Shown here one piece after another: positions 6,347-64,000 of a DNA stretch of 64,000 nt; within the stretch, counting starts at the first letter, position 1, and every line of letters begins with the position of its first letter. Under the pieces are notes generated by a model. The model was not told the DNA's origin. It did not search any database and saw nothing but the letters and a program-made list of their open reading frames with translations. Source of the stretch: Escherichia phage fp01. The DNA is taken from sequence record NC_048731.1. The stretch is one strand, 5' to 3'. Made by a program: the position numbers and the translations under genes.

Positions 6347-7051
6347 ATGGCTGGTTCTCGTAGAAAGAAACATATCCATGAAATCCCTGATGAAGTCTTT
6401 AAAAAGGTTATAGAGCATCTGGGGAACGGTGGTACTAAGAAAGCAGCATGTGAAATGCTCGGCGTATCATCTAATCCAACTATGGAAAGGATGATTGAAG
6501 AATGGCAAGACCGCCAGATTCAAGTTGCCGAAATGAAGAAAAAGAAACGTGGCACACTTATTGAAGGCATCGAGCTAGCTAACGTTATTGAGCAGTATTT
6601 GTCTGGTGATTCTTTTGAAGAGATTGCCGATCGTAATTATCGCTCTGTAGCAATGGTTAAATCTGTTCTGGAACGATATGGTGCTCTACTTCGTTTGAAC
6701 GATATTGTAGATCCATTGAATCCTCCGATTATTCCTGATGATGCTGTAGCAGAAGAATTTGCAGTTGGTGAGCTTGTTTGGGTTCCTGGATACCAGTGTA
6801 TCGGTGAAATCAAAAAAGCAATGGATAATCCTGTTGGTTGCTACCGTGTATGGCTTCTATCAGAAGGCAAACAACAGAACGTCCATTATATGAATTACGA
6901 GCTGGCCTCTGTTAAACATCTGGAAAAGCTAGGGGTTGACGTAAAGTCTCTGGGATATAAATGGACTCGTGAAGAAATTATTACGTTGATTAACGAAGCT
7001 GTTAAGGCTGCCCTGAAACTTGATAAAGAAAAAGGAAAACGCCGTGAGTAA
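6347..7051 (+). CDS. hypothetical early protein with HTH-like segments, possible regulator
   Basis: Starts 16 nt after the PN25-like leader RBS; HTH-like stretches GTKKAACEMLGVSSNPTMERMI and FEEIADRNYRSVAMVKSVLER. Confidence 0.5.
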   Translation: MAGSRRKKHIHEIPDEVFKKVIEHLGNGGTKKAACEMLGVSSNPTMERMIEEWQDRQIQVAEMKKKKRGTLIEGIELANVIEQYLSGDSFEEIADRNYRSVAMVKSVLERYGALLRLNDIVDPLNPPIIPDDAVAEEFAVGELVWVPGYQCIGEIKKAMDNPVGCYRVWLLSEGKQQNVHYMNYELASVKHLEKLGVDVKSLGYKWTREEIITLINEAVKAALKLDKEKGKRRE

Positions 7052-21096: not shown

Positions 21097-22915
21097 GACA
21101 CTAAAATTTAGTAACGTTATGTCTTACGGTAAGGACATCGTAATTCATTTCGATAAGAATCCAGTTACTCAACTAATTGGTGGCAATGGGCTAGGGAAAT
21201 CCACTATTGCTACTGTTATTGAAGAATTGTTTTATAACAAGAACTCACGGGGTATTAAGAAGGACGCCCTGTTCTCTTGGTCTACTCCGAAAAAAGAGTA
21301 TGATATGCACGCTTACTTCTCGAAAGATGAAGATGAGTATGAATTGCATAAAGTAGTTAAATCAACTGCTAAAGTAACTCTTATTAAGAATGGAGAAGAT
21401 ATTAGTGGCCACACGGCAACTCAAACATACAAGATGATTGAAGAGATTATGGGTGGTGACTTCCAAACATTCACCAAACTAATTTATCAATCAGTGGGTT
21501 CCAATCTAGACTTTCTAAAAGCAACAGATGCAACACGTAAGGCTTTTCTTGTCAACTTGTTCAATCAAGAACAGTATAAAGAAATGTCAGAAACTATTAA
21601 GGCTGACCGTAAAGAAATAGCAAATACCTTAAATAATTTGCAGGGCCAAATGGCTGTAATTACGAAGATCCTTAATGGAAAGAATAATCTGGGAACTTTG
21701 CAGGAACCTGTAGAAGTACCGGAGTTTGATGAAGAGCCATTAGCACAAGAACTTACTGAATCGAAAATTAAGGCGGCATTAGCCAAGTCTCAAGAGGCTA
21801 ATATTACTAAATTGCGTAATTTGGACAAAGCTGTACAAGTTGCCGAACAATCTTTCGAACCTTTCAAAAATTTGCCCGCGCCTACTGACCAAAACGAAGA
21901 GATCTCAAGTGTTACGCGTGACCTAACGATTGTGACCTCACGTGCGGGAGAAGTTAAGAAACGTTATCAGAAGTTCAAGCAAGAGGCTTCAAATACTGAA
22001 TGTCCTACTTGTGGTACTCATCTGGATACAACTGCTGCTCAAAAAGCAATGGATATGGCTAGAATAGAATATGACCCTCTGTTCAAAGAGAAGCAATCTC
22101 TTGAAGCTAAGCTAGAACAGTTGAAGAAAGAACAACTTGAGTACGTTGCGTATACTAGAGCAAAGGATGCTTTGGATAAAGCAGTGGCAGCTAGAGACGA
22201 GTTCAAAAATTCAATGAGTGACGCCTCTTTTGAAGAACTCAATGTGCAAAACCTACAGGTGCAAATCCGACAACTAGAACAGGAAATAGCTGATGGCCGT
22301 TCTAAGGTTGCAATTGCCAAAGAGCATAATGCAAATGTCGAATTAGCCAATGCAAAATATAAAGCGAAACTAGAACAGATTGAGAAAGCTGAGGCAGAAA
22401 TGTCTGAGATTACTTCCAAACTGGATGAAGTATCAGAAGCTGTTTCTGATCTAGATATTCTGATTGCTGCATTGAAAAATCTGGTAGGGTATAAACTAGA
22501 ACATAGCGTGAAAGTATTTGAAGAGCTTATCAATAAATACCTTTCCATTATGACTGGCGGTAAGTTCGCACTTGGATTTGAACTTGATGAAACAAAATTA
22601 CAAGTAGTAATCTTCAATGATGGAAACCGTACTAGTATGGAGAATTGCTCTACTGGTCAGCAAAGTCGAATCAACCTAGCAACTCTGTTAGCTATTCGAA
22701 TGCTACTAACATCTATTAGTAAAGTTAATATTAATCTTCTATTCCTTGATGAAGTAATTAGCTTTATTGATACGAAAGGACTTGACACCCTTGTTGAATT
22801 ATTAAATGAGGAAGAAAGTCTAAATTCTATCATTGTTTCTCATGGGCATACGCATCCATTGGCCCATAAGATTACTGTCAAAAAAGATGCAGAAGGATTT
22901 TCCTACTTAGAATAA
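21077..22915 (+). CDS. SbcC/Rad50-like ATPase with zinc hook
   Basis: Walker A GGNGLGKST, long coiled-coil, CPTCG hook motif, C-terminal LFLDE (Walker B/D-loop); start set to internal ATG at 21077. Confidence 0.75.
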   Translation: MSKITIKTLKFSNVMSYGKDIVIHFDKNPVTQLIGGNGLGKSTIATVIEELFYNKNSRGIKKDALFSWSTPKKEYDMHAYFSKDEDEYELHKVVKSTAKVTLIKNGEDISGHTATQTYKMIEEIMGGDFQTFTKLIYQSVGSNLDFLKATDATRKAFLVNLFNQEQYKEMSETIKADRKEIANTLNNLQGQMAVITKILNGKNNLGTLQEPVEVPEFDEEPLAQELTESKIKAALAKSQEANITKLRNLDKAVQVAEQSFEPFKNLPAPTDQNEEISSVTRDLTIVTSRAGEVKKRYQKFKQEASNTECPTCGTHLDTTAAQKAMDMARIEYDPLFKEKQSLEAKLEQLKKEQLEYVAYTRAKDALDKAVAARDEFKNSMSDASFEELNVQNLQVQIRQLEQEIADGRSKVAIAKEHNANVELANAKYKAKLEQIEKAEAEMSEITSKLDEVSEAVSDLDILIAALKNLVGYKLEHSVKVFEELINKYLSIMTGGKFALGFELDETKLQVVIFNDGNRTSMENCSTGQQSRINLATLLAIRMLLTSISKVNINLLFLDEVISFIDTKGLDTLVELLNEEESLNSIIVSHGHTHPLAHKITVKKDAEGFSYLE

Positions 22916-53001: not shown

Positions 53002-53736
53002 TTACGCAACTTTTAATTTCTCAATATATTGTTGCGGGCTGCAACTATATTCTGCGCGTTCTTCCTCGGTCATACTTTCCCAACATAATTTCAAACGATC
53101 GGCTAGGAACTGATAATCATTATCATCCTCGAGGGATTCATCAATAAAGGTTCCGCCTATCAATGCCACGCCGATTGATAGAATATCATTAACGGCTTGC
53201 GCATCTAGCGTTTTAAATCCATATGACGCAGCCGCTGATAATACACCTTTATGATCATCAATCATTGTAAAATCAGCGTTCGGATATAGCTGTTTAAATA
53301 ATTCAAAGTAATAACTTTTGTATACTGCGTCCTTGCTGTGGTATATCTCGCTAACCTTATCAGCCTCAAAATATTTATGCAGTGTATCGCGGGAAAATAC
53401 ACGGATATTACTATCACCACGCCCGCGCAATCCTTGTTTGCGCAAATAATAATAATCCGACTTGCTCATCAGCCGAGCGGTGCAAATAATGTTTAAAGTA
53501 TTTGAGTCATTCATACATTGGCGCATATATTCCACCAAAGGTAATAAGGTGTCTTGCATTATTAAATCATGTTTACACGCTTCATTTTTATACTTATTTA
53601 AATTTAAATTCCCGTCGCTATCAAAGCAAGGCGCTACACGATGGAAAGAATTAATGATAGTGCCGTCCAGATCCCAAATCATGACGCGGGAAATATGCGG
53701 GAAATTACGGGAAATATTCATAATAGCTTTATTCAT
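53002..53736 (-). CDS. dmp: HAD-family phosphatase, 5'-deoxynucleotidase (Dmp)-like
   Basis: HAD motif I IWDLDGTIINS, motif II-like ICTARL, motif IV-like MIDDHKG; 244 aa; location in pre-early region next to A1-like gene. Confidence 0.5.
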   Translation of the reverse strand: MNKAIMNISRNFPHISRVMIWDLDGTIINSFHRVAPCFDSDGNLNLNKYKNEACKHDLIMQDTLLPLVEYMRQCMNDSNTLNIICTARLMSKSDYYYLRKQGLRGRGDSNIRVFSRDTLHKYFEADKVSEIYHSKDAVYKSYYFELFKQLYPNADFTMIDDHKGVLSAAASYGFKTLDAQAVNDILSIGVALIGGTFIDESLEDDNDYQFLADRLKLCWESMTEEERAEYSCSPQQYIEKLKVA

Positions 53737-53815
53737 TTGTTACGTTCTCCATTAAAGGGATGTAGTTTATCCAGCACTGCCCGCTATTTATAAGCGGGCA
53801 ATAATAAATCAACTA

Positions 53816-54223
53816 TCAAAGACCATAAGCCAAAGCATCGGCGATAAAACTAATATCTTCGCCGGATATATGGGAACGAATACCCGCGCAGATATACACC
53901 TTTGCGCTTGATAGCTGATCATCAAAGCAAGCCGGACAAGGCGCGACAACTGCAAACGCAAGGCCAGCTTTCACGGCGTCAATGATAATCGTTTCTTGTT
54001 TCACCGTATCAACATAAACGCCTGCGGCCTTGATGTAACTACTTGCGCGGCCTTGCGTATAGGCGAAAGTCGTGATCTGTAGCGCCTCATTAAATTCGAT
54101 TAAATCATCAACAACGTGACCGGCCTCAACGTGATACCGCTCACCATTAGAATAAACCAGAACGATTGAGGATTGAGCGCGATCGAATGGAATATTTTGC
54201 TTTTTCATATTTATAAACTCCAA
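53816..54223 (-). CDS. hypothetical pre-early protein (A2-position)
   Basis: 135-aa ORF between A1-like and dmp-like genes; contains HVE...PCPAC. Confidence 0.4.
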   Translation of the reverse strand: MEFINMKKQNIPFDRAQSSIVLVYSNGERYHVEAGHVVDDLIEFNEALQITTFAYTQGRASSYIKAAGVYVDTVKQETIIIDAVKAGLAFAVVAPCPACFDDQLSSAKVYICAGIRSHISGEDISFIADALAYGL

Positions 54224-54274
54224 TTAATTTAATAAGGGGCATAAGCTGGAAGTATTTCCAGCTTATAAATTTAA

Positions 54275-55954
54275 TTATGCGAAAAATTTGCCGTTTTTAA
54301 AGTCAATCAAAGTGCGTTGCCCGTTGGCGTATGTAATTAAATGCGTTTGCGTCCAGCTTGACGCGCCAACGTTGTAACCCATATCCAGACTACCAGCTAC
54401 GCCAGCGGTATAAACGCCGCCATAAATGCTAGCGGTGTGAGTGTGTCCGGTGTTTAACTTGCCCAATTTCTTAAACTGCTTAGGATTGCCACGGCTGCCG
54501 TTTATGCCGTTATGACCGTGTACACCACACTCAATGCCTGCAATTTTGAATGATTGATCAGTCGTTAGGAAAATCGCGTTAAACTCGCAACCTGCGACGC
54601 TACGCAGCGCATAATCTAGCACGTTGAAAGTATCGTCATGATTACCGATTGCCGCGTAAATTGCAGCATTAAGGCGGTGATATAGTTCCGCATTGGCTGG
54701 GTCGTCTTTAATGTTAGCATTACGATCATCAAGCCAACGAGATAGCGCCAAATCGTGATTCGATTCAACAATGATCGTTTGACTAAAATCACGCTCCATC
54801 GATTCCAGCACGCGCCCGGTATCGATAAGATCATCAATAACCTTATCCCGTCCGGCTGCATACTGTTTCGCTAGAAATACACCGGAAGCGCGGTTATGAT
54901 GATTGCGCGATGTAAAATCATGCACGTCATGGATAAACTGATATTTAGGCTTGAGAATATCAAGCAAACTATTGTCGCCAGCCCATGACGCTGCGGCGCA
55001 CTCCTCATCTAATTTTTCGGCGTGAATGTCACCATACTGTAAGCCTAAAACATGCCCCGATGTTTCATAGCATCCGGCGGGAGTAGCGCAAACATTCAGA
55101 TCATAAAACACCCCGCTTTCATCCATTGTTTCAAGCTGGCGAACAAAAAATTCACCGTCCTCATCGAACTCGACAATCAGCGCACCAAAGTTATGAAGTG
55201 CTTCCGCTTTCTGTCCTGCTTTCTGCTGAATGTAGTTTTTGAGTGTTGCCGTTCCGGTTGAATACATGCGGCGCACCACTTCACCTTTTAAAGCTGGGAC
55301 GCTTTCGGCGGTGATTTTAGCGTGACCAATTGCCAGACCCTCGATATTTAAAGCCGTTGCAGTTTCTGCAAATCCAGAAAGCGGATAATCTGCGGTTGGC
55401 AAAACATTAATTTCAGCCATGAAAGCAAAACGGCGGTTATTTAAAAACACGTTTTTGCTGCAAATATACTTATCAAAAGCGGAATCATATTTGATTCCGT
55501 CAGCACCTTCCCCATTTTGGAATCCGTTTTTATTATAAATATACTTAGAAACAAGCAAATCAGCGCCGATAAATTTGGCATATTGTTCAAGCGAGGACAA
55601 AAAGTTTTTATGCGGGAAAGTATTATTCTGAATCGATGTAATAATAAAGCGTTTGCCTTGTTTTACTTCCCACTGTTCCACGGTACTAGAAACAATTCCA
55701 GCCGCTTCGGGGCGCTCATCGTTTTTAATGGCTTTTACCGCTTTCGCCGCTTTCGGTTTAGCTGGTTTATTTGCTTCCAGCCAGTCGCAGATAGCGGTTG
55801 AATGTTTTGCAGTATCGTAAACCGCTTTTGATATATCGTCGCAGACCTCCAATTTAGTAGCGCGCAGACGTTTACCATAGAAATTAAAGTCAGCGGCTAG
55901 TTTCAGGATAGCGGTTTGTTTTTCTGCGGAAAAAATCATAGTAATAAACTCCAT
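54275..55954 (-). CDS. A1: A1-like pre-early protein with metallophosphoesterase-type nuclease motifs
   Basis: 559 aa; calcineurin-like motifs GDIHAE and GHTH; GC-rich composition; position matches T5 A1. Confidence 0.55.
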   Translation of the reverse strand: MEFITMIFSAEKQTAILKLAADFNFYGKRLRATKLEVCDDISKAVYDTAKHSTAICDWLEANKPAKPKAAKAVKAIKNDERPEAAGIVSSTVEQWEVKQGKRFIITSIQNNTFPHKNFLSSLEQYAKFIGADLLVSKYIYNKNGFQNGEGADGIKYDSAFDKYICSKNVFLNNRRFAFMAEINVLPTADYPLSGFAETATALNIEGLAIGHAKITAESVPALKGEVVRRMYSTGTATLKNYIQQKAGQKAEALHNFGALIVEFDEDGEFFVRQLETMDESGVFYDLNVCATPAGCYETSGHVLGLQYGDIHAEKLDEECAAASWAGDNSLLDILKPKYQFIHDVHDFTSRNHHNRASGVFLAKQYAAGRDKVIDDLIDTGRVLESMERDFSQTIIVESNHDLALSRWLDDRNANIKDDPANAELYHRLNAAIYAAIGNHDDTFNVLDYALRSVAGCEFNAIFLTTDQSFKIAGIECGVHGHNGINGSRGNPKQFKKLGKLNTGHTHTASIYGGVYTAGVAGSLDMGYNVGASSWTQTHLITYANGQRTLIDFKNGKFFA

Positions 55955-56033
55955 TAAAGGGATAAAAAACGTTTGTTATTGGCAATATTGCCAGATATAA
56001 CGCCTTGAATAATAGGCGTTATAATTTGCAACA

Positions 56034-56231
56034 TTAATTTAAAGGCATAAGGCTAGAACTAACACCACAAACAACGGCGGCAATAAAACAAATCAGACCT
56101 AAACGCTTCGCTAACTTAGATTTGCGTTTAAAATAATACGAATCTAAGTCATTTTGAAAATATGCGAACAATAACGAGGCCGCCATAATAAATAGTCCTA
56201 GAATCAGCGATTCAGTAGGGTAAAAGATCAT
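56034..56231 (-). CDS. small membrane protein
   Basis: Two hydrophobic helices; start set to internal ATG with RBS TGGAG. Confidence 0.35.
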   Translation of the reverse strand: MIFYPTESLILGLFIMAASLLFAYFQNDLDSYYFKRKSKLAKRLGLICFIAAVVCGVSSSLMPLN

Positions 56232-56288
56232 TTTAATAACTCCAGTTAAAGGGAAATTATAGTGGGGAATAATCCCCACTAGTTAAAT

Positions 56289-56696
56289 TTATTCACCTGC
56301 GGCCTGTTTTACTTCATCGGCAACGCCTAACAACTGCGCCACGGCGTCCAGCGTTTCCAGTTTCGCGCTTTCAAGGCTTGCCAGATCATCGGCGTCTTTG
56401 ATAATGCCGGAATCAATAGCGTGTTTTGCAATTACTCGCACATAATGAGCCTTGCGGATTGAACTGCCGCCGCCAACTTTGCGCGGCTTATCGCTTTTTT
56501 GATAGGCTTTCGCGCTGGTCAATTTTGAGCGAACGGATACGGGAGAAGTCGCGCCCACTGCCTTTGCAATCTCTTTCAGGCCGTCGCTATTTGCAAATTC
56601 TAAACCGTTTTCGTTGATTAACTGCTGATACAGGGTAACAGCTTTTTGGGTGTTGTCTTCATTCCAAGTGAATTTTGCGGTTTTTGCGTTAGTCAT
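56289..56696 (-). CDS. hypothetical pre-early protein
   Basis: 135-aa ORF, E. coli-like codons, RBS GGAG. Confidence 0.45.
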   Translation of the reverse strand: MTNAKTAKFTWNEDNTQKAVTLYQQLINENGLEFANSDGLKEIAKAVGATSPVSVRSKLTSAKAYQKSDKPRKVGGGSSIRKAHYVRVIAKHAIDSGIIKDADDLASLESAKLETLDAVAQLLGVADEVKQAAGE

Positions 56697-56794
56697 GGTA
56701 AAAACTCCAATTAATTTAATTTAAGGGATTAGATTAACTAATGTTAATCGTTATAACCCTCCTTATTCTAGGAGGGTATAAAGTTAACACTAAT

Positions 56795-57046
56795 TTATAA
56801 TACAGCTTCCCATTTTTCGTTGCGTTGAACAACCTTTACAACATCGCCTGATTTAACGCGAACGTTATAAACGGTTTTGCCGTTGTTACTGCGTTCTGTT
56901 TCAGCGTATACCGCGTCGATTGTATCGAACGGCATAAGCGCCGCGCCTTTAATACGTTCGGCCTTTCCGGTTAATTCATCCGTTTTAGTAACGAAAGGAA
57001 TAAAAACGGATTGACCAATTTTAGGCGTGGTAATAACGTTTTGCAT
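56795..57046 (-). CDS. hypothetical pre-early protein
   Basis: 83-aa ORF with RBS GGAG. Confidence 0.4.
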   Translation of the reverse strand: MQNVITTPKIGQSVFIPFVTKTDELTGKAERIKGAALMPFDTIDAVYAETERSNNGKTVYNVRVKSGDVVKVVQRNEKWEAVL

Positions 57047-57246
57047 AATATAGACTCCAGTTTATTCAGTGGATTGTTCCGCATTACCTGCTAGAAAATA
57101 ACAGGTAATAAGAAAAAATCCGCTCGCCATTATAAAATCAAATTAAAGAACTCCACGCGGGCCGCTATATCCCAGTTAGGGGGCGAGACACATTATGGTA
57201 AGTGCCGACCGTCAAATTGTATCAAGTTATCGCTCTTTTCGAACTG

Positions 57247-57271
57247 GGTATATCTTAAAAGCCCATCGGCT
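57247..57271. repeat. left arm of a 25-bp inverted repeat flanking a two-gene cassette
   Basis: GGGTATATCTTAAAAGCCCATCGGC; reverse complement with one mismatch at 57670-57694. Confidence 0.8.
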
Positions 57272-57277
57272 AGGTTG

Positions 57278-57478
57278 TCAAACTATTTTTTGCAGTTTTT
57301 TATGATTTTCCTTCAGGTCAATCATAATATTACGCCAGATCATTTCTAAACCTTGCTGGCGCCCTTTCTTGTACTGCGTGAAGCGGTATTTTACCGATCT
57401 TTGCGCTACTGTCAATAATTTTTTAGTTTCGCTATCCAGTGCCTTGCTAGGTTTACCAGTGATCAATAGAGTTTGCAT
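57278..57478 (-). CDS. hypothetical small basic protein
   Basis: 66 aa, Lys/Arg-rich; start overlaps upstream stop (TAATG). Confidence 0.35.
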   Translation of the reverse strand: MQTLLITGKPSKALDSETKKLLTVAQRSVKYRFTQYKKGRQQGLEMIWRNIMIDLKENHKKLQKIV

Positions 57479-57636
57479 TATTTGAGATCCTCCAAAGCGT
57501 ATAAACCTTTGCCATCATTGCAGATTATTACTGCTTCTGAATAGGTGGCATGATATTCGTTTGCCGCTTTTACCCATTGCTCGATCTTTTCGATCGTGTC
57601 GTGGGTAGCTGGATGATCGTTATATATTGTTTGCAT
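57478..57636 (-). CDS. hypothetical small acidic protein
   Basis: 52-aa ORF found by hand (below the track length cut-off); RBS AAGGA 9 nt upstream; translationally coupled to the next gene. Confidence 0.3.
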   Translation of the reverse strand: MQTIYNDHPATHDTIEKIEQWVKAANEYHATYSEAVIICNDGKGLYALEDLK

Positions 57637-57669
57637 ATCGTCGATTCCTTATAATGAATAAGTTTACCG

Positions 57670-57694
57670 CCGATAGGCTTTTAAGATATACCCA
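57670..57694. repeat. right arm of the 25-bp inverted repeat
   Basis: GCCGATAGGCTTTTAAGATATACCC; embedded in a local palindrome agtttaccgccg...cggcggtaaact. Confidence 0.8.
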
Positions 57695-58148
57695 ATTTTT
57701 AAAGAGCGCGGCGGTAAACTCCCCGCCGTGTAGTTCGTCATTGCCGCCCTACGAGATAAATAATAACAAACAACGAAAAAGGCGCAACCTTATATTTGTA
57801 AAGAAATGTAAAGACAAAATCCACCGGACACCGTGCGGCGATCTGGGCGCGACGGCCTAAAATTAAAAGAAACGGGCGCGCGAATACCACAAAACACAGC
57901 AGATAAGCAAGTAATTTTTTCATTTATATTTGCTTTGCCCTACTTGACAAAATCTAAAAAGCTCGTGGCGACGATAAACGACGTGGCCCCTTATGATTGG
58001 ATGGCTAAAAACTTTACTGCGTTCTGGGGCGTTTCAGGCCGCTTATTTTCGACTTAACAAATCATTAACAAACGCAAAATTGAAAAATAGTTGGAAAAGG
58101 TCTTGACTTTTAAAAATCAAGACCAAATGACTTAATTTATTAAATTAA

Positions 58149-58667
58149 TTAATTGACAATTCCAAATTCAGCTTTTTTAGTTTCAAGCCATAATAATAAC
58201 TCTTGTAAATCATAACCTGACTTACTAACACGCTTGTTAGTAATAGGATTCTTAATTTGAGCAGTCAAATAGTCACGCCCGTAACTATCACGGGGGCGAA
58301 CTTTATTAACGTAAATGTTTTTAGGGATACCATTAGCACGCTTACAGTTTTCATACTCACTAGGAGTACGATTATAATTATTCTGCGAACTATCAACCGC
58401 GCGAAGATTCCAGATGTTATTATTACGAGTGTTACGATCGATATGATCAATCATTAGCTCGCTATCTATACCGCCATTCATTATACAAAAGATAATTCTA
58501 TGTACTTTTAACTGTCCCATGCCTAATAGTTCAACTTGCCAATAATTACCATTTAAACCACCTGCGACGGCGTGATCTTCCCGCCAACGTAAAAATGATA
58601 ACGCTGTTTCATCATAATAAAAGTAACTATTAAAAAGATCATAATCTATATCTTTATATTTACCCAT
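58149..58667 (-). CDS. HNH homing endonuclease
   Basis: HNH signature MIDHIDRNTRNNNIWNLRAV (H-x-D...N...N); AT-rich codons unlike the GC-richer neighbours. Confidence 0.65.
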   Translation of the reverse strand: MGKYKDIDYDLFNSYFYYDETALSFLRWREDHAVAGGLNGNYWQVELLGMGQLKVHRIIFCIMNGGIDSELMIDHIDRNTRNNNIWNLRAVDSSQNNYNRTPSEYENCKRANGIPKNIYVNKVRPRDSYGRDYLTAQIKNPITNKRVSKSGYDLQELLLWLETKKAEFGIVN

Positions 58668-58931
58668 TGTTATAGTTTCCTTATGTTATTAATTTAATCT
58701 CTATTATATTATATCAAAACAATTAGCAGACTAGCTAATGAGTTTTTCAGGTTTAATTAGCAGACTCATAATCACTCTAAAAACCTATTAGCCAACTAAC
58801 TATATTTTATTATATAATAACTGTATAAATTAGTTAGTGAGAACCACTATCATTTAAGTTACCCACAGCCTTATACATTTTGTAAAATAATTTGACACAA
58901 TAGGCGGCGATATGAGGGCTTTTACACAGAC

Positions 58932-58940
58932 TTATCCACA
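58932..58940 (+). promoter_or_regulatory. consensus DnaA box
   Basis: TTATCCACA exact match to the DnaA box consensus. Confidence 0.5.
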
Positions 58941-58950
58941 GGTTATTCCA

Positions 58951-58966
58951 CTGTATAAATATACAG
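58951..58966. promoter_or_regulatory. LexA (SOS) box-like palindrome
   Basis: CTGTATAAATATACAG fits CTGT-(AT-rich 8)-ACAG. Confidence 0.4.
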
Positions 58967-59232
58967 GGTAAAAAGGTAGTGTTAACAACTGCAATCAATT
59001 TTAAGCGGCCTAAAACGCTTTCTAACGAGCTAAACGCTGCGGGGTAGTATTAAAGTAAAGCCTTCACCCGTCGGCCTGGTGGCTTCGCCGTGTCTTGCTC
59101 TTTACTACACCGCTGCGCGGTTAGCATAAAACTAGGTGTTAGGCAAGGAAAATAAAAAAGTAAAATAATCTTTGCCTATGCTAGAAAATTACCCTTATCA
59201 TTCACTCACCGATTAACGAGGGAGGCCAACAA

Positions 59233-60219
59233 ATGCGGCTATATAAACCAGATAACGCAACCGTCTTAAAAGGTGCGCTGCGTAACCTGCTGGACGGTAG
59301 CAGAACAACCAGCATTAAACATTTTGTTTTCAATATTGAAACTATTCATCAAAACTTTTTTGATGATTATGATGCTTACAATATGAATAGTTTTCTACCG
59401 TTATATAAGCAAGGGGCAACGCTTGTTTTATATAATCAGGATTATCAATTACTTACTAGTAGGGGGCCGGATACTGATTTCATAGTCGTAAAAGGCAACA
59501 CAGTAAAAGCCTATGATACTGGGGCGGGCTTAGAAGTTTTTTCAATAGAAAACTATGAAGCCAATGATAATGATCTTTATGACGTAGAAAATTTTCTTGA
59601 TTCATTTTGGCGTTATTTATCAGTTGGCTGGAATCGGTCGGATTCTGATGGGTATCGTTTTGCGGCTATAATGGCCTTTGATGATAACGGTAATTTTTTG
59701 CTACCGTCGGAGTTATATAATCGGGTATATGAAGGCGATATTGTTGACGCCGGATTTTCTTTCGAAAGGGAAGAAAGTATTGACAGTATAGAAAAACATG
59801 CTGTAAATTCTAACACTAAAAGCGTTCACACTCAAACTACTGAAAACAAAGGAAAAAATGCCATGACCAAGATCGCTAACATCGTTGCCGCCAATAAGTC
59901 TGCCGTTGTAAACGCTGCAAAACTGGAAGCGGGTAAAATTGCACTGACTCAAATTACGAAAGTAGCGGCTAAAAAAGCACCGTTCATGATCAAAGGCTAT
60001 ATTGATACGCCGATTGGTCGTGTAGTGATCGCTAACCTGCTGAGTGTAGCGGTTGACCAGTACGCCCCGAGTAACCAGAAAGCGAAAGCGGTAGCAGGGG
60101 CGGCTATGGAAGCGGCGATGTTGGAAATGGTGCAAAGTTTTAACATCGCTGAGATGATTGATGAAATGGTAAAAGGTATCGATATTTCTACTTTCACCAC
60201 TAACACCGAAAGCGAGTAA
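59233..60219 (+). CDS. hypothetical pre-early protein (328 aa), two-part composition
   Basis: RBS GAGGGAGG; C-terminal third Ala-rich with E. coli-like codons. Confidence 0.45.
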   Translation: MRLYKPDNATVLKGALRNLLDGSRTTSIKHFVFNIETIHQNFFDDYDAYNMNSFLPLYKQGATLVLYNQDYQLLTSRGPDTDFIVVKGNTVKAYDTGAGLEVFSIENYEANDNDLYDVENFLDSFWRYLSVGWNRSDSDGYRFAAIMAFDDNGNFLLPSELYNRVYEGDIVDAGFSFEREESIDSIEKHAVNSNTKSVHTQTTENKGKNAMTKIANIVAANKSAVVNAAKLEAGKIALTQITKVAAKKAPFMIKGYIDTPIGRVVIANLLSVAVDQYAPSNQKAKAVAGAAMEAAMLEMVQSFNIAEMIDEMVKGIDISTFTTNTESE

Positions 60220-60283
60220 TAATAACTAGCGGGGTAACAATCCCCGCTTTACTATTCCCTTGTTAATTAATAGGAGGCTAATT

Positions 60284-60601
60284 ATGCAGCTTAACAAAAA
60301 AATGCTAGAACAATTGCGGGGTAGAATCCAGCGCGATGACTACCCTCACATTAATTATTCTTCGGAAGTAGTAGACACTGCCGATTCATGGAAAAAAGCA
60401 GGTTACCCCTATGTATGGCAACATGCAGAAAGCGCAAACGGATTCCATGCCTTTCGTGATTTAGGTCATGGAAAACTTTGCGTTTTTAAAGGTGAGTTAT
60501 TAATAGGAGTATCAGAATCGGAAGTAATCACGGATGAGGTTGTATTCTTAGACAATGACCAATATGAAACAGGCAATCAGTTTTATTTTCCCGCTAATTA
60601 A
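60284..60601 (+). CDS. hypothetical protein
   Basis: Start at ATG 60284 behind TTAATTAATAGGAGGCTAATT; the track start at 60260 lacks an RBS. Confidence 0.4.
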   Translation: MQLNKKMLEQLRGRIQRDDYPHINYSSEVVDTADSWKKAGYPYVWQHAESANGFHAFRDLGHGKLCVFKGELLIGVSESEVITDEVVFLDNDQYETGNQFYFPAN

Positions 60602-60615
60602 TAGGAGGCTAATTA

Positions 60616-61110
60616 ATGGCTGAAGAAAAATATGGCTTCTCACTGGGAGAAGTGAGCACGGCAAAACATGATATGATCATTTTAGTCGATTGTCATACTG
60701 GCTATTGCGGGGAAGGGAATACCGAGGAATATTTTGTTCCTGCTGGTACGGATCTAGACGCTTTCGCTCAGGAAATGGCTATTGATAATGCTTCTCGTTT
60801 TGGTAGCGATGGCTATGAAGACGAGGAAACTGGCGAATGGTATGAAAATGAAAACGTATATGCGAGCCTTTATCATTATCAATTAAGTAAATCCGGCACA
60901 TATGTAAACGGCGGCGATCCTATTAATTCCGTCATGAAATTAATTATTAAACACGGTGGCGTCGAGATAATTGATAACAAAGCGGTAATATATGCAAACC
61001 GATTAAAACAGCTTGTTTATATCCCTGATAGTACCCGATGGGATGAATACGCCGTTTTGCATGACGAATTGAAACGATGTTTCAATGTTGAAGCCTTACA
61101 AGTAGTCTAA
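60616..61110 (+). CDS. hypothetical acidic protein
   Basis: Preceded by the same TTAATTAATAGGAGGCTAATTA element; 164 aa. Confidence 0.45.
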   Translation: MAEEKYGFSLGEVSTAKHDMIILVDCHTGYCGEGNTEEYFVPAGTDLDAFAQEMAIDNASRFGSDGYEDEETGEWYENENVYASLYHYQLSKSGTYVNGGDPINSVMKLIIKHGGVEIIDNKAVIYANRLKQLVYIPDSTRWDEYAVLHDELKRCFNVEALQVV

Positions 61111-61123
61111 TGTAAAGTTTTGT

Positions 61124-61152
61124 AAAGGTCGCCTTTTATGGTGGCCTTTTTT
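61124..61152 (+). terminator. putative terminator followed by an extended -10 element
   Basis: aaaggtcgcc-ttttat-ggtggccttt (G-U wobble stem) then TTTTTTGCTATAATG. Confidence 0.4.
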
Positions 61153-61216
61153 GCTATAATGCCTTTACACCGTTTGAGGACGGTTGAAAATTTTCCCAAA
61201 AATTTGGAGGCTTAAA

Positions 61217-61447
61217 ATGGTTGCTTATTCTTCTTCTGACGCTCTTTTCACTGGGAAAGGCTGGGTATCTAATCGCTGGATTATTCAAGAAATGGTGCAA
61301 GAATACGGCATTGCTAAAACTTACACTACCATTCAGGCGCTTTATGATAATGATCAAATCGATCAGCAAACGGCGGGCTTTTTGCTGGATACCCTGAAAG
61401 CGGAACACTGTACCAAAAAACAAGCGGCAAAAATTGTTTTAATGTAA
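61217..61447 (+). CDS. hypothetical protein
   Basis: ATG at 61217 with RBS TGGAGG; 76 aa. Confidence 0.35.
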   Translation: MVAYSSSDALFTGKGWVSNRWIIQEMVQEYGIAKTYTTIQALYDNDQIDQQTAGFLLDTLKAEHCTKKQAAKIVLM

Positions 61448-61496
61448 TTAATAACGGGGCGTTACTTTCGCCCCACTAACTAGGGGAGTAGTACAA

Positions 61497-61679
61497 ATGG
61501 TTATTTTTCGAGCTGTTCTAGCAGGTATCTTGGGCGCTATTTTGACCCTTTTCGCCACCGCGTATGGTATTCAGGATTCCTATTGCGGTTTGGTAAATAC
61601 AAAACCAATGGTTACTATTGGCGCTGGCATTGCTGTATTTTCTTATCTGCTAGGCTGCATGACTAGTAAAGGAGAATAA
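61497..61679 (+). CDS. small membrane protein
   Basis: 60 aa with two hydrophobic helices; RBS GGGGAG. Confidence 0.35.
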   Translation: MVIFRAVLAGILGAILTLFATAYGIQDSYCGLVNTKPMVTIGAGIAVFSYLLGCMTSKGE

Positions 61680-61681
61680 AA

Positions 61682-61894
61682 ATGATCCGCAACGTTTCTC
61701 TTGCACGTTCGAAAGGCTTTAAGCTGGTGGATGCTAACACGTTCGAGCGTCTTGATTGTAAAATCGAATATGTAGCACGTAACAAAAATGCCTTTCGTGT
61801 TACCGAGAAAAAATTTGACAAGCGCGGCAACGTGATCGCTGAAACGGTTAAACACTTTGCCACCTTTTACGCTGCGTTTCGTGGGGTGTTATAA
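61682..61894 (+). CDS. hypothetical small basic protein
   Basis: 70 aa; starts 3 nt after previous stop. Confidence 0.35.
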   Translation: MIRNVSLARSKGFKLVDANTFERLDCKIEYVARNKNAFRVTEKKFDKRGNVIAETVKHFATFYAAFRGVL

Positions 61895-61895
61895 A

Positions 61896-62240
61896 ATGGT
61901 TATTTATGAAGGCAATCGTTTTGTTGCTAATTGCCGCCCGGCATTGTTAGCAAACTATTTAAATCAGCTTTCGCCAGCTTATAAGGGCGTTATTAATATT
62001 TATGAGGGCAAGGCACATTATAAAATTAATGCGGTCGTTGCCCGTGAACTAGCATTTCAATTTTTGACCTTTGCATCTTGTGACGTTCAAGTTATGGGTG
62101 AAGCATTAATTGCGGAAAATGAAGAGGATTTTATTAATATTTTCCGCAAGGTATGCACCGAGCGCCTGATAATGAAAGGCGCGTATATTCAATCCACTGC
62201 GGATAGTATTGAAACAGCGTTTCGAAAGGTGGCACAATGA
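61896..62240 (+). CDS. hypothetical protein
   Basis: ATG at 61896 directly after upstream stop; 114 aa. Confidence 0.35.
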   Translation: MVIYEGNRFVANCRPALLANYLNQLSPAYKGVINIYEGKAHYKINAVVARELAFQFLTFASCDVQVMGEALIAENEEDFINIFRKVCTERLIMKGAYIQSTADSIETAFRKVAQ

Positions 62241-62395
62241 AAAAGTTTTTAATAGCTGGCATGTTTCCTTTGTTGCCTTATGTAATTTGCTGGGCTTTAT
62301 ATGCTCATGGTGCTAGTGTTCCCGGTGTGGCTGCATTTGGTGTATCAGCGGGCTTTCTAGCCGGACTACTAGCAAGCGTATATTTACGCAAGTAA
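62237..62395 (+). CDS. small membrane peptide (52 aa)
   Basis: Hydrophobic throughout; ATGA overlap with upstream gene; found by hand. Confidence 0.3.
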   Translation: MKKFLIAGMFPLLPYVICWALYAHGASVPGVAAFGVSAGFLAGLLASVYLRK

Positions 62396-62414
62396 TTAAC
62401 AACGGAGCGTTATT

Positions 62415-62609
62415 ATGAGCAATAAAATTATTGTAACCAAAACCAGCACAACGGTTGATGTTTTTTACGTGCCCGATACGCCGGAAAACCGACAAGCGGT
62501 CGAGCGTGGGGAATATGATAAAGTGATTTATGATCACGATGGTTATTATCAGTATTTGGTGGATTCATATGGGGAGGAGGAAAAGATCACGCACCGACTA
62601 CCGGACTAA
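62415..62609 (+). CDS. hypothetical small acidic protein
   Basis: 64 aa; RBS ACGGAG. Confidence 0.35.
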   Translation: MSNKIIVTKTSTTVDVFYVPDTPENRQAVERGEYDKVIYDHDGYYQYLVDSYGEEEKITHRLPD

Positions 62610-62650
62610 TAATCACGGGGCGCAACTATCAGGAAGTGCCCCCAATTCTC

Positions 62651-62671
62651 AAATGAGAATGATTCTCATTT
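62651..62671. repeat. perfect 21-bp palindrome
   Basis: AAATGAGAATGATTCTCATTT; related copies at about 63160 and 63220. Confidence 0.7.
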
Positions 62672-62893
62672 GACCGCGCCCGCGATGGTTAGCCTGCTAA
62701 TGGTTAGGGTGTTACGTGTCGCCTTGTGTGATCGTTAGCGAGCTAACTAATTTTCAAGCCTCCTCCAATTTTGCCCTTGTTTTAGTATCCCCACCAAAAT
62801 TAAACGCGTTAGAATGCGTTTGAGGGCGTTTTAGCGGTATATTAGAATTATTCACTGCGTAGGAATACTGTATATTTATCCAGTAGGATAAGC

Positions 62894-62978
62894 TGTGGAT
62901 AAGTCTGTTGATAACGCTTCAAAACGGCTAGGATTTTGTCAAGTCAAATCGTGCTGTTGATAAGTCTGGGGATAACTT
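62894..62978. promoter_or_regulatory. cluster of DnaA-box-like sites
   Basis: TGTGGATAA (62894-62902, exact reverse-complement consensus), TGTTGATAA at 62906 and 62955, GGGGATAAC at 62967. Confidence 0.55.
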
Positions 62979-63007
62979 AAATAATAGTGTTTCTCACTTC
63001 CGTTCTT

Positions 63008-63250
63008 AAATGCGAATCATTATCATTTGCATTCCACTTCCTGAATAAGAATCATTCCACTATCTAAACGATAATCATTCCACTTCCTGAATAATAATCA
63101 TTCCACTATCTAAATAAGAATCATTCCACTATCTAAACGATAATCATTCCACTTTTTAAATGAGATTGATTCTCATTCCACTTTCTAAATGCGAATTATT
63201 ATCATTCGCATTCCGCTTTTTAAATGAGAATGATTCTTATTATCATTCGT
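63008..63250. repeat. about 9 tandem copies of a roughly 23-bp direct repeat (iteron-like)
   Basis: Repeating (A)ATCATTCCACT(A/T)TCTAAA(C/T)(G/A) units. Confidence 0.8.
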
Positions 63251-63255
63251 ATTTA

Positions 63256-63282
63256 GCGCAGAGCAATTGCTCTGCGCTTTTG
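63256..63282 (+). terminator. perfect 22-bp palindrome with T-tract
   Basis: GCGCAGAGCAATTGCTCTGCGC then TTTTG. Confidence 0.55.
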
Positions 63283-63520
63283 TGCAAAACCGACATTGCT
63301 CCACGGGTGTTACGTGCGGGCGTATGTGCAAATCCGACAGGATTTTTGGTAGTGTGCAAATCCGACCCGAAAAATTTTTATAGTGTGCGAATCCGACAAT
63401 GAATTTTTCCAAAAACTCCAGCAATCCGATGCTGCGCATCAATCCTGTGGAATTAACTAGAATATGTGCAAATCCGACATGAGTTTATTTGTGCGAATCC
63501 GACAAGATTTTTGTGACTTC
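63282..63520. repeat. six direct 13-bp repeats GTGCRAAWCCGAC
   Basis: Copies near 63282, 63328, 63353, 63384, 63466, 63490, each followed by an A/T-rich tract. Confidence 0.8.
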
Positions 63521-63529
63521 GATTGGAGG

Positions 63530-63700
63530 GTGTGTGATTGTGTGGGTTTGGGGAGAAGTTGAGAGAGCGAGGGAAAATTAGGGGAGAAGCTAGAGAGGCG
63601 CATGTTTGGTGCGGGGGCACCCGATTTGCGGGGATTTTGGGGAAGAGTTGAGAAGATTTGGGTTAATTTGAGATTAGTGGAGATAAAGTAAAATTTTATT
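63530..63700. repeat. purine-rich G-tract region with three GGGGARRAGYTRGAGA copies
   Basis: ggggagaagttgagaga, ggggagaagctagagag, ggggaagagttgagaag; strong G/A strand skew. Confidence 0.6.
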
Positions 63701-63834
63701 AGCTAAATGGGGCAAAATAGCTTGACAAGTGAAAATTCTTGTGGCTCTAAAAACTCAGGCAATCATGGGCCTTCGGCCCGAAATAATGCTGCCATTTTCA
63801 AGAGATTATGTGTCCATGAAAACTTAGGCAATTG

Positions 63835-63985
63835 TGCAAATCCGACCATAAATTTCTAGAAACACAATGTGCAAATCCGACAGTAAAATCCAGAAATGTG
63901 TTTTCAAAAAATGTTGTCTAGAAATAACCGCCCTCCCCATAACCGCCCTGTATTAAACCGCCTAGTATATGTTCCTAGAAACTTA
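63835..63985. repeat. two further GTGCAAATCCGAC copies followed by four AACCGCC motifs
   Basis: GTGCAAATCCGAC at about 63837 and 63870; AACCGCC at about 63927, 63943, 63957, 63981. Confidence 0.7.
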
Positions 63986-64000
63986 GGAGAACCGCCCACT

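What the first reader, a model, noticed from the sequence alone, without database searches (positions are those of the whole stretch)
59233..62609. Plus-strand cluster of nine small or uncharacterised genes in the pre-early region, with repeated ribosome-binding cassettes
Nine tightly packed ORFs, several with stop-start overlaps and three predicted small membrane proteins, are transcribed away from the divergent control region toward the repeat region. Two consecutive genes are preceded by the identical element TTAATTAATAGGAGGCTAATT. None shows a recognisable enzymatic motif. Pre-early genes of T5-like phages are known to include unidentified host-shutoff and anti-restriction functions, so this block is a reasonable place to look for anti-defence genes.
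Basis: partly seen in the sequence, partly recalled or inferred. Interest (0 to 1): 0.5.

Follow-up and report, generated by a model that had tools for sequence, protein, structure and literature searches.

The report
T5-type pre-early right-arm operon
This is the already described rightward "pre-early" operon of a T5-like phage, a set of mostly dispensable host-takeover genes; the repeated ribosome-binding element is the leader that accompanies each optional gene plugged into one variable slot.

Summary
The nine plus-strand ORFs at 59233-62609 are real and 92% coding. They form the rightward pre-early (first-step-transfer) operon of a Tequintavirus. Six are orthologs of T5 genes 011, 012, 013, 014, 015 and 017 (77-99% identity). 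The promoter region is 95% identical to T5's.

Published T5 work shows that this whole arm (hegG-017) can be deleted. [quoted passage not shown] Its ortholog here is ORF7, not the 70-aa ORF6 that RefSeq and PHROGs label.

ORF2, ORF3 and ORF8 have no T5 counterpart. They sit in two variable slots, between 011 and 012 and between 015 and 017.

The repeated element (20 nt exact, 32 nt imperfect, 331 bp apart) is a stop-plus-Shine-Dalgarno leader. Across 41 stretches of T5-like DNA its copy number equals the number of genes in the first slot: 0, 1 or 2. It therefore marks a gene-sized insertion or deletion (ORF2), not a special regulatory device.

ORF3 is acidic and gives a confident predicted fold with no match among solved structures. 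No ORF matches a known anti-defence family, so an anti-defence role is neither supported nor excluded. The region is ordinary and largely already described.

The parts
59172..59201 (+). Sigma-70 promoter of the rightward pre-early operon (TTGCCT, 18 nt, TATCAT) behind an A-rich upstream stretch
   Evidence: Found by the promoter scan. It lies inside the stretch that aligns with the promoter annotated at T5 6411-6489. The whole control region is 95% identical to T5. Annor et al. list the T5 promoter upstream of 011 as experimentally characterised.
59233..60219 (+). O1, 328 aa, ortholog of T5.011 (DUF7566, the '37 kD pre-early protein'). It has an N-terminal alpha/beta part, a disordered linker and a C-terminal helical, Ala/Lys-rich domain.
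   Evidence: Pfam DUF7566 E=1.7e-111. 77% identity to T5.011 over the full length. The AF2 model is low-confidence, pLDDT 51, so only secondary structure is usable. T5 011 is toxic and disturbs nucleoid organisation. O1 is 100% identical to a protein of Escherichia phage fp01.
60228..60248 (+). Terminator-like hairpin after O1 (AGCGGGG...CCCCGCT, then TTTACTATT). It is present only in phages whose slot A is filled.
   Evidence: Terminator scan. The junction alignment shows it in the window, DaisyDussoix, SaI_NFG_5581 and chee24 but not in T5.
60253..60284 (+). Leader cassette, copy 1: TATTCCCTTGTTAATTAATAGGAGGCTAATTA, with stop codons, the GGAGG Shine-Dalgarno and an A/T spacer, directly before the O2 ATG
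60284..60601 (+). O2, 105 aa, acidic (pI 5.0). It is the optional first gene of slot A. Its last codons (F-P-A-N-stop) are encoded by cassette copy 2.
   Evidence: Absent from T5, chee24 and SaI_NFG_5581. It is 96% identical only in phage DaisyDussoix, and about 44% identical in 78 other records, with a homolog in the same slot in both Epseptimavirus loci examined (Sepoy L005 and L033). It belongs to a family of about 100-aa proteins: 59 clusters at E<=1e-3, and the ten members scanned gave no Pfam match.
60584..60615 (+). Leader cassette, copy 2: TATTTTCCCGCTAATTAATAGGAGGCTAATTA, directly before the O3 ATG, 331 bp after copy 1
   Evidence: Copy number tracks the number of slot-A genes in 41 stretches of DNA.
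60616..61110 (+). O3, 164 aa, strongly acidic (pI 4.4, net charge -17). It is the common slot-A gene, absent from T5.
61124..61149 (+). Rho-independent terminator-like hairpin with a T-run after O3, homologous to the terminator annotated after T5.011
61217..61447 (+). O4, 76 aa, ortholog of T5.012
   Evidence: 99% identity; phrog_5145. Not toxic in T5.
61497..61679 (+). O5, 60 aa, two hydrophobic segments, ortholog of T5.013
   Evidence: 93% identity; hydropathy scan. In one study, expression of T5 013 lysed part of the cells.
61682..61894 (+). O6, 70 aa, basic (pI 10.2), ortholog of T5.014. It carries the RefSeq/PHROG label 'endonuclease nicking abasic sites', which appears to be misplaced.
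   Evidence: 97% identity to T5.014; phrog_4227. The same 70-aa protein is called 'ORF015' in another T5 record. In the loci fetched with O7 as query, it accompanied O7 in all of them.
61896..62240 (+). O7, 114 aa, ortholog of T5.015, the Ung-dependent AP-site nickase
   Evidence: 93% identity over the full length. UniRef names the T5 protein 'DNA-(apurinic or apyrimidinic site) endonuclease'. Function from Mahata et al. 2021. Numbering cross-checked against Annor et al., who use NC_005859.
62237..62395 (+). O8, 52 aa, two hydrophobic segments, one of at least eight alternative fillings of slot B. Its start overlaps the O7 stop (ATGA).
   Evidence: Hydropathy scan. Present in 41 phage records. 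Absent from T5, which has T5.016 there. Slot B survey.
62415..62609 (+). O9, 64 aa, acidic, ortholog of T5.017
   Evidence: 89% identity; phrog_6973
58836..58966 (.). Left arm of the large inverted repeat that brackets the operon, with paired DnaA boxes (58920 TTTTACACA, 58932 TTATCCACA)
   Evidence: It matches Davison's IRC-spacer-IRD description.
62868..62998 (.). Right arm of the inverted repeat, with a DnaA box at 62894 on the minus strand. This is the start of the injection-stop repeat region.

Best explanation
The block is the rightward pre-early (first-step-transfer) operon of a Tequintavirus, the counterpart of T5 genes 011-017.

How it most likely works:
- A strong host-RNA-polymerase promoter at about 59172-59201 drives it in the first minutes of infection, while only the terminal-repeat DNA is inside the cell.
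- Its products are accessory host-takeover effectors, not essential functions.
- O7 (the 015 ortholog) binds host Ung and nicks the abasic sites that Ung makes, which stalls host replication.
- O1 (011) disturbs the nucleoid, and O5 (013) damages the membrane.
- O4, O6 and O9 are conserved small proteins of unknown role.

Around this conserved core lie two plug-in slots.
- Slot A, between 011 and 012, holds 0, 1 (O3) or 2 (O2+O3) genes.
- Slot B, between 015 and 017, holds one of at least eight alternative small genes, here O8.

Each slot-A gene comes with the same leader, TAATTAATAGGAGGCTAATTA. The leader supplies the stop codon of the upstream ORF, a consensus Shine-Dalgarno sequence and an A/T spacer. 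Two genes in the slot therefore give two copies.

Recombination between such leaders is the most likely way that gene modules are gained and lost.

Shown: orthology, synteny, promoter homology, slot states, and the link between cassette copies and gene number.
Inferred: timing of expression in this phage, the activities of the orthologs, and recombination at the leaders.
For: - Identity of the region: 432 phage records match, nearly all T5-like by organism name. The best is 95.5% identical but covers only 92%; alignment of this record and chee24 to the window shows they lack O2.
- Orthology to T5.011, 012, 013, 014, 015 and 017 at 77-99% identity.
- The left arm (dmp, A1, A2, hdi, hegG) lies upstream.
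- The control region is 95% identical to T5, including the annotated promoter.
- Inverted repeats with DnaA boxes bracket the operon, and injection-stop repeats follow it.
- Published function: the hegG-017 deletion of T5 is viable; 011, 013 and 015 are toxic; 015 is the Ung-dependent nickase.
- In the related Tequintavirus Bas33, pre-early transcripts were detected and ten pre-early proteins were found by proteomics.
- Cassette: phages without O2 have exactly one copy, directly before the O3 ATG. The window and DaisyDussoix have O2 inserted precisely there, with a second copy.
- The same arrangement exists in an Epseptimavirus whose O2 homolog is only 44% identical.
- Counts in 41 stretches of DNA (the window plus 40 fetched loci, several of them the two terminal repeats or duplicate records of one phage): 23 with the slot empty and 0 copies, 12 with O3 only and 1 copy, 4 with O2+O3 and 2 copies, and 2 exceptions due to divergence.
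- Slot A lengths fall into three main groups of about 120, 670 and 1000 bp, plus single loci at 317, 710 and 1021 bp. Slot B has 21 distinct sequences in at least eight content states.
Against: - Pre-early timing and promoter use are inferred from T5 and Bas33, not measured for this phage.
- Two terminator-like hairpins, at 60228 and 61124, lie inside the 'operon'. Downstream genes therefore need read-through or an unrecognised promoter.
- Toxicity on overexpression does not establish the natural role of 011 and 013, and Mahata et al. did not see toxicity for 013.
- The direction of the O2 event, insertion or ancestral presence with repeated loss, is unresolved.
- Recombination at the leader is inferred from junction anatomy only.
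- The slot B junctions share only about 5 nt (ATGAG), so the leader-recombination idea does not obviously extend to that slot.
Confidence: 0.75

Rival explanations
1. Anti-defence island. One or more of these genes, most plausibly the slot genes O2, O3 or O8, inhibits a host defence such as restriction-modification, CRISPR or RecBCD, or excludes competing phages. The slots would then be arms-race hotspots.
For: - T5-like phages have unassigned pre-early functions that protect later-injected DNA from restriction, CRISPR and RecBCD.
- The two slots are hypervariable among otherwise 90-99% identical neighbours.
- O3 is strongly acidic (pI 4.4, net charge -17) and has a confident fold with no known relative.
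- The authors of the T5 deletion say these genes may matter in hosts that carry defence systems.
Against: - T5 lacks O2, O3 and O8 yet is the classic restriction-insensitive phage. These three genes therefore cannot be the general factor.
- Davison reports that DT57C lacks several genes of this region; its loci L031/L032 show no O1, O3 or O4. It is nevertheless grouped with the resistant Tequintaviruses.
- Epseptimaviruses, reported as R-M sensitive, carry O2 and O3 homologs in the loci examined (Sepoy).
- There is no match to any known anti-defence family or fold.
- The anti-defence genes identified so far in this phage family lie in the tRNA region.
Confidence: 0.25
2. The identical leader is a cis-regulatory operator, for example the target of a translational repressor or of an RNA structure. 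It would put O2 and O3 under common post-transcriptional control, and it is conserved for that reason.
For: - Twenty-one nucleotides are identical in the two copies, although only GGAGG is needed for initiation.
- The second copy is also identical in Sepoy, whose O2 protein has diverged to 44% identity.
- An imperfect inverted repeat, 77% complementary, pairs copy 1 with 60336-60357 inside O2 (I1).
Against: - No other gene of the operon carries it.
- Its copy number simply follows the number of genes in the slot.
- No Rfam family matches at E<=1 in the block.
- An A/T-rich unstructured leader with a consensus Shine-Dalgarno sequence is expected for a strongly translated phage gene without any repressor.
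Confidence: 0.1
3. The mosaic, including the O2 insertion or deletion, results from homing-endonuclease-driven gene conversion starting at the adjacent HNH gene (hegG, 58149-58667), not from recombination at the leaders.
For: - An HNH endonuclease gene sits next to the operon. It is itself variably present and comes in at least two alleles, 57% versus 93-97% identity.
- O1, O4 and O5 each occur in two or three discrete identity classes in different combinations, as expected from repeated patchy recombination.
Against: - Presence of hegG shows no consistent association with the slot A or slot B state, or with the O1 allele class, in the 40 loci.
- The O2 junctions are precise at the leader, 1.6 kb from hegG.
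Confidence: 0.1

Closest known systems
Bacteriophage T5 pre-early genes 011-017 (right arm of the first-step-transfer DNA, NC_005859 6495-9157)
   Same: Same position, orientation and promoter region (95% identical). Same bracketing inverted repeats with DnaA boxes. Orthologs of 011, 012, 013, 014, 015 and 017 in the same order.
   Different: The window has two extra genes (O2, O3) and an extra hairpin between 011 and 012. It has a 52-aa membrane protein (O8) where T5 has the 85-aa T5.016. O1 is only 77% identical to T5.011.
T5.015, the Ung-dependent AP-site nickase (Mahata et al. 2021, PMC8201957)
   Same: O7 has the same length (114 aa), is 93% identical and occupies the same position after the 70-aa gene.
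   Different: The activity was not tested for this ortholog. Public annotation (RefSeq product names, phrog_4227) places the function on the neighbouring 70-aa protein instead.
Modular accessory-gene slots of virulent and temperate phages: 'morons' of lambdoid phages and the hyperplastic regions of T4-like phages, where short repeated promoter/stem-loop sequences flank exchangeable genes (recalled from my own knowledge, not checked here)
   Same: Small genes of unknown function are gained and lost as units at fixed positions between conserved genes. Short repeated non-coding sequences sit at the module borders.
   Different: Here the repeated border is a translation leader (stop codon plus Shine-Dalgarno) inside an operon, not a promoter-terminator unit. 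Recombination at it is inferred, not shown.
Acidic DNA-mimic anti-restriction proteins such as Ocr and ArdA (recalled from my own knowledge)
   Same: O3 is small, very acidic (pI 4.4, net charge -17) and sits in the region expressed first during infection.

Membership tests
T5-type pre-early right-arm operon (T5 011-017) | Lies in the first-step-transfer region, divergent from the dmp-A1-A2 arm and upstream of the injection-stop repeats | tested here: met
   dmp, A1, A2, hdi and hegG orthologs lie at 53005-58667 on the minus strand. Injection-stop-type repeats follow at 62868-63881.
T5-type pre-early right-arm operon (T5 011-017) | Orthologs of the T5 genes in conserved order | tested here: met
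   011, 012, 013, 014, 015 and 017 at 77-99% identity over full length. 016 is absent and replaced by O8.
T5-type pre-early right-arm operon (T5 011-017) | Promoter homologous to the characterised T5 promoter upstream of 011 | tested here: met
   The control region is 95% identical. TTGCCT, 18 nt, TATCAT lies within the stretch aligned to T5 6411-6489.
T5-type pre-early right-arm operon (T5 011-017) | Transcribed before second-step DNA transfer | not testable with these tools
   Shown for T5 and Bas33 in the literature, not for this phage.
T5.015 Ung-dependent AP-site nickase (for O7) | Full-length sequence orthology to T5.015 (114 aa) | tested here: met
   93% identity over residues 1-114. 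UniRef names T5.015 an AP endonuclease.
T5.015 Ung-dependent AP-site nickase (for O7) | Binds Ung, nicks abasic sites, and shows ung-dependent toxicity | not testable with these tools
   Biochemistry exists only for the T5 protein.
T5.015 Ung-dependent AP-site nickase (for O6, as labelled by RefSeq and PHROGs) | Is the protein that Mahata et al. called T5.015 | tested here: not met
   O6 is the ortholog of locus tag T5.014. The 70-aa protein is 'ORF015' only in a different T5 record. Annor et al., using NC_005859 numbering, found 015 toxic and 014 not.
Known anti-defence protein families | Sequence or fold similarity to a described anti-defence protein | tested here: not met
Small phage membrane proteins (O5, O8) | Two hydrophobic segments long enough to span a membrane | tested here: met
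   Kyte-Doolittle 19-residue windows above 1.6 at O5 1-26 and 37-56, and at O8 3-23 and 27-50. None of the other seven ORFs has such a window.

The most novel reading that the evidence does not exclude
Slots A and B of the T5-type pre-early operon are counter-defence or superinfection-exclusion hotspots. At least one of the genes without a T5 counterpart would then neutralise a specific host defence or exclude rival phages during the few minutes when only the first 8% of the genome is inside the cell. Those genes are O3 (acidic, confident fold with no known relative), O2 (member of a family of about 100-aa proteins spanning 59 clusters) and the membrane protein O8.
Probability: 0.25. Interest if true: 0.6.

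Novelty: already known. Interest (0 to 1): 0.27.

Why it matters
How T5-like phages protect their later-injected DNA from restriction, CRISPR and RecBCD has been open since the 1970s, and the responsible pre-early gene is still unidentified. This block is one of the few places it could be.

The evidence here narrows the search.
- The three genes special to this phage (O2, O3, O8) cannot be the general factor, because T5 lacks them.
- The core genes are dispensable for growth on a laboratory host.

Two practical points follow.
- The 'Ung-dependent endonuclease' label in RefSeq and PHROGs appears to sit on the wrong gene: the 70-aa protein instead of the 114-aa one. The error is being propagated into new phage annotations.
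- The leader cassette gives a simple marker for scoring gene gain and loss in this slot across T5-like genomes.

Tried and rejected
- Pfam, NCBIfam and PADLOC scans of all nine proteins gave only DUF7566 for O1; the other hits are sub-threshold noise.
- PDB sequence searches for O1 and O3 gave nothing significant.
- The word-indexed homolog search for O2 returned only two near-identical proteins, so no useful alignment for structure prediction could be built.
- The full HMMER search for O2 found a family of about 100-aa proteins; the ten members scanned gave no Pfam match. A 5556-aa hit with 10 stretches looks like an artefact of a repetitive fibre-like protein.
- Structure prediction of O1 from 44 homologs of at least 87% identity failed (pLDDT 51), so I did not use it for fold search.
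- The 120 O1 homologs listed were all at least 87% identical. The more distant ones among the 317 found were not shown.
- The afdb50 fold library was unavailable.
- An Rfam scan of 57000-64000 gave only a chance miRNA match.
- The supplement of Mahata et al., where primer sequences could settle the 014/015 question directly, is not held. Davison's 2015 review is not held either.
- I considered whether the cassette is a generic chance Shine-Dalgarno match and rejected it (0.03 expected).
- I considered whether the adjacent HNH gene explains the mosaic and found no association in the 40 loci.

Full report
**What is there.** The interval 59233-62609 holds nine + strand ORFs, each with an ATG start behind a Shine-Dalgarno sequence:

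| ORF | Coordinates | Length (aa) |
|---|---|---|
| O1 | 59233-60219 | 328 |
| O2 | 60284-60601 | 105 |
| O3 | 60616-61110 | 164 |
| O4 | 61217-61447 | 76 |
| O5 | 61497-61679 | 60 |
| O6 | 61682-61894 | 70 |
| O7 | 61896-62240 | 114 |
| O8 | 62237-62395 | 52 |
| O9 | 62415-62609 | 64 |

- Coding density is 92%. Intergenic gaps are 64, 14, 106, 49, 2, 1, -4 and 19 nt, so there is one true overlap, the ATGA at O7/O8.
- All nine match phage protein families in PHROGs, with E-values from 7e-26 to 2e-168.
- Only O5 and O8 have hydrophobic segments of membrane-spanning length, two each.

**Where it comes from.** The DNA matches 432 phage records, nearly all T5-like by organism name. The best is Salmonella phage SaI_NFG_5581, at 95.5% identity over 92% of the query. 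O1 is 100% identical to a protein of Escherichia phage fp01.
- Upstream on the minus strand lie orthologs of T5 dmp, 002, A1, 005, A2, 007, hdi and 009, and an HNH gene in the hegG position.
- The 600-bp divergent control region is 95% identical to T5. It contains a TTGCCT-18-TATCAT promoter at 59172-59201, inside the stretch aligned to the promoter annotated upstream of T5.011.
- The block is bracketed by inverted repeats, 58836-58966 and 62868-62998, that carry DnaA boxes.
- It is followed by the repeat-rich injection-stop region: eight copies of GTGCRAATCCGAC and a 23/46-nt tandem array. Davison describes the same features for T5.

**Gene by gene against T5.** BLASTP gives the following identities:

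| Window ORF | T5 ortholog | Identity |
|---|---|---|
| O1 | T5.011 | 77% |
| O4 | T5.012 | 99% |
| O5 | T5.013 | 93% |
| O6 | T5.014 | 97% |
| O7 | T5.015 | 93% |
| O9 | T5.017 | 89% |

O2, O3 and O8 have no counterpart anywhere in the T5 terminal repeat, and T5.016 is absent from the window.

**What is published for the T5 genes.**
- Mahata et al. cloned 13 pre-early genes. They found 008, 011 and 015 toxic, and showed that 015 binds Ung and nicks Ung-generated abasic sites (PMC8201957).
- Annor et al. deleted hegG-017 together with the dispensable left-arm genes (dmp, 002, 003, 005, 007); that mutant (ΔLΔR) is viable with smaller plaques.
- They found 011, 013 and 015 toxic. 011 gave uneven nucleoid staining and 013 lysed part of the cells. 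They found A1 alone responsible for host DNA degradation (bioRxiv 10.64898/2026.04.02.716235).
- In the related phage Bas33, pre-early transcripts and ten pre-early proteins were detected (PMC13250531).
- The block is therefore an accessory host-takeover operon that has already been dissected genetically in T5.

**An annotation conflict.** RefSeq product names and phrog_4227 put 'endonuclease nicking abasic sites generated by host uracil glycosylase Ung' on the 70-aa protein, which is T5.014 and O6 here.
- The cluster look-up shows that this 70-aa protein is called 'ORF015' in a different T5 record.
- The 114-aa protein with locus tag T5.015 is named 'DNA-(apurinic or apyrimidinic site) endonuclease' by UniRef.
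- Mahata's list of cloned genes fits the NC_005859 tags.
- Annor et al. state that they use NC_005859. They found 015 toxic and 014 not, with 013 being the two-transmembrane protein.
- I conclude that O7, not O6, is the nickase ortholog, and that the RefSeq/PHROG label is an off-by-one transfer. Primer sequences that would settle this directly were not available.

**The repeated element.** TAATTAATAGGAGGCTAATT occurs twice, at 60264 and 60595, against 0.03 expected by chance. The repeat extends imperfectly to 32 nt, 60253-60284 and 60584-60615, at 84% identity and 331 bp apart.
- Phages without O2 (SaI_NFG_5581, chee24) have exactly one copy, directly before the O3 ATG.
- In the window and in DaisyDussoix, O2 sits precisely between that copy and O3, followed by a second copy that also encodes the last codons and the stop of O2.
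- T5 lacks both copies, the first hairpin, O2 and O3.
- The Epseptimavirus Sepoy has a 44%-identical O2 homolog in the same slot with the same flanks.
- I compared 41 stretches of T5-like DNA: the window, 35 loci from viral contigs and 5 from GenBank records. Several are the two terminal repeats, or duplicate records, of one phage. Cassette copies equal slot genes in 39 of the 41:

| Slot A content | Cassette copies | Stretches |
|---|---|---|
| empty | 0 | 23 |
| O3 only | 1 | 12 |
| O2+O3 | 2 | 4 |
| divergent exceptions | mismatched | 2 |

- The O1-to-O4 distance falls into three main groups of about 120, 670 and 1000 bp, plus single loci at 317, 710 and 1021 bp.
- The element is thus the translation leader of each slot-A gene module: stop codon, consensus Shine-Dalgarno and A/T spacer.
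- Recombination between leaders is the simplest route for gain or loss. This is an inference from junction anatomy, and the direction of the O2 event is unresolved.

**A second slot.** Between the O7 stop and the O9 start the same sample shows 21 distinct sequences in at least eight content states:
- nothing, with O9 starting at the ATGA that overlaps the O7 stop;
- a 10-aa remnant;
- a 31-aa ORF;
- O8;
- a different 53-aa membrane protein;
- a 71-aa protein;
- a 66-aa protein;
- T5.016.

O8 occurs in 41 phage records, O2 in 80 and O3 in 345. Davison had already noted many deletions and insertions in this interval. He also noted a My1 ORF shared with chee24 and Shivani but missing from T5, which is probably O3: O3 homologs occur in chee24, Shivani and phage My1.

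**The genes without T5 data.**
- O3 is acidic (pI 4.4, net charge -17).
  - Its 18-sequence alignment shows invariant motifs, and some homologs carry a CxxC...CxxC insert.
  - AlphaFold2 gave a confident model, pLDDT 86.7 and pTM 0.81.
  - The significant BFVD matches (E<=0.001) are all uncharacterised or unnamed viral proteins; the named ones are from phages of Salmonella, Pectobacterium, Klebsiella and Pantoea, with a Vibrio phage just at the threshold.
- O2 belongs to a family of about 100-aa proteins, 59 clusters at E<=1e-3; the ten members scanned gave no Pfam match.
- The O1 model failed (pLDDT 51). Only its secondary-structure layout is usable: an alpha/beta N-terminal part, a disordered linker and a helical C-terminal domain. 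This agrees with the published remark that 011 resists functional prediction.

**Anti-defence?** Nothing found here supports it, and nothing excludes it.
- For:
  - Unassigned pre-early protection functions exist.
  - The slots are hypervariable.
  - O3 is acidic and has no known structural relative.
- Against:
  - T5 lacks O2, O3 and O8 yet is restriction-insensitive.
  - Davison reports that DT57C lacks several genes of this region; its loci show no O1, O3 or O4.
  - R-M-sensitive Epseptimaviruses carry O2 and O3 homologs in the loci examined.
  - There is no similarity to known anti-defence families.
  - The known anti-defence genes of this phage family (Rad, tRNAs) lie elsewhere.

**Verdict.** The region is the known T5-type right-arm pre-early operon. 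The repeated cassette is explained as a module leader duplicated by a gene-sized insertion or deletion. Novelty is low. The residual interest lies in the uncharacterised slot genes and in the misplaced nuclease label.

Noticed in passing
window 61682-61894 (O6) and 61896-62240 (O7); L003 8086-8644: RefSeq product names and phrog_4227 attach 'endonuclease nicking abasic sites generated by host Ung' to the 70-aa protein (locus tag T5.014). UniRef and two experimental papers point to the 114-aa T5.015. The 70-aa protein is 'ORF015' in another T5 record, which probably caused an off-by-one transfer that now spreads to new phage annotations.
   Followed up: yes
window 62237-62415; loci L001-L040 around position 5342: The junction between the 015 and 017 orthologs is a hypervariable slot, with 21 distinct sequences in at least eight content states. 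A recurrent unannotated 31-aa ORF (MRLYIFVGNVEAANDSAGGDNVRHYWQKYIY) starts at the ATGA that overlaps the 015 stop codon.
   Followed up: partly
window 58836-58966 and 62868-62998: Inverted repeats of about 130 bp (76-87% complementary) bracket the whole operon. They carry DnaA boxes: 58920 and 58932, which are 3 bp apart, and 62894. This matches Davison's IRC-spacer-IRD and IRD'-spacer-IRC' of T5.
   Followed up: partly
window 63282-63881, plus one copy at 22259: Eight copies of GTGCRAATCCGAC lie in the injection-stop region, against 0.08 expected in the whole window. The motif's complement resembles a DnaA box with one mismatch (ATTTGCACA). A single exact copy lies far away at 22259, next to a consensus-type box at 22243-22251.
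   Followed up: no
window 63030-63248: Tandem array with 23/46-nt and 29/35-nt periods (CATTCCACT...TAAATAATAAT units) in the non-coding injection-stop region.
   Followed up: no
window 58149-58667 (minus strand): The HNH endonuclease gene in the hegG position is only 57% identical to T5 hegG. It is 93-97% identical to the allele in several other T5-like phages and is absent from many, so at least two alleles of a mobile endonuclease occupy this site.
   Followed up: partly
window 61444-61469, 62392-62417, 62610-62630: A second family of repeated intergenic sequence, TAATTAAYAACGGRGCGTTA, follows the stop codons of O4, O8 and O9. Two copies form the 5' half of G+C-rich hairpins without a T-run. 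It may be another module border or an RNA-stability element.
   Followed up: no
window 59000-59135: A G+C-rich, strongly self-complementary stretch lies between the left inverted repeat and the O1 promoter. It is conserved with T5, and no Rfam family matches it at E<=1.
   Followed up: partly
alignment A2 (O3 homologs P0101, P0102, P0104, P0106): Some O3 homologs carry an insert of about 20 residues with two CxxC pairs (a zinc-ribbon-like motif) at the acidic loop, where the window protein has only DEETGE.
   Followed up: no
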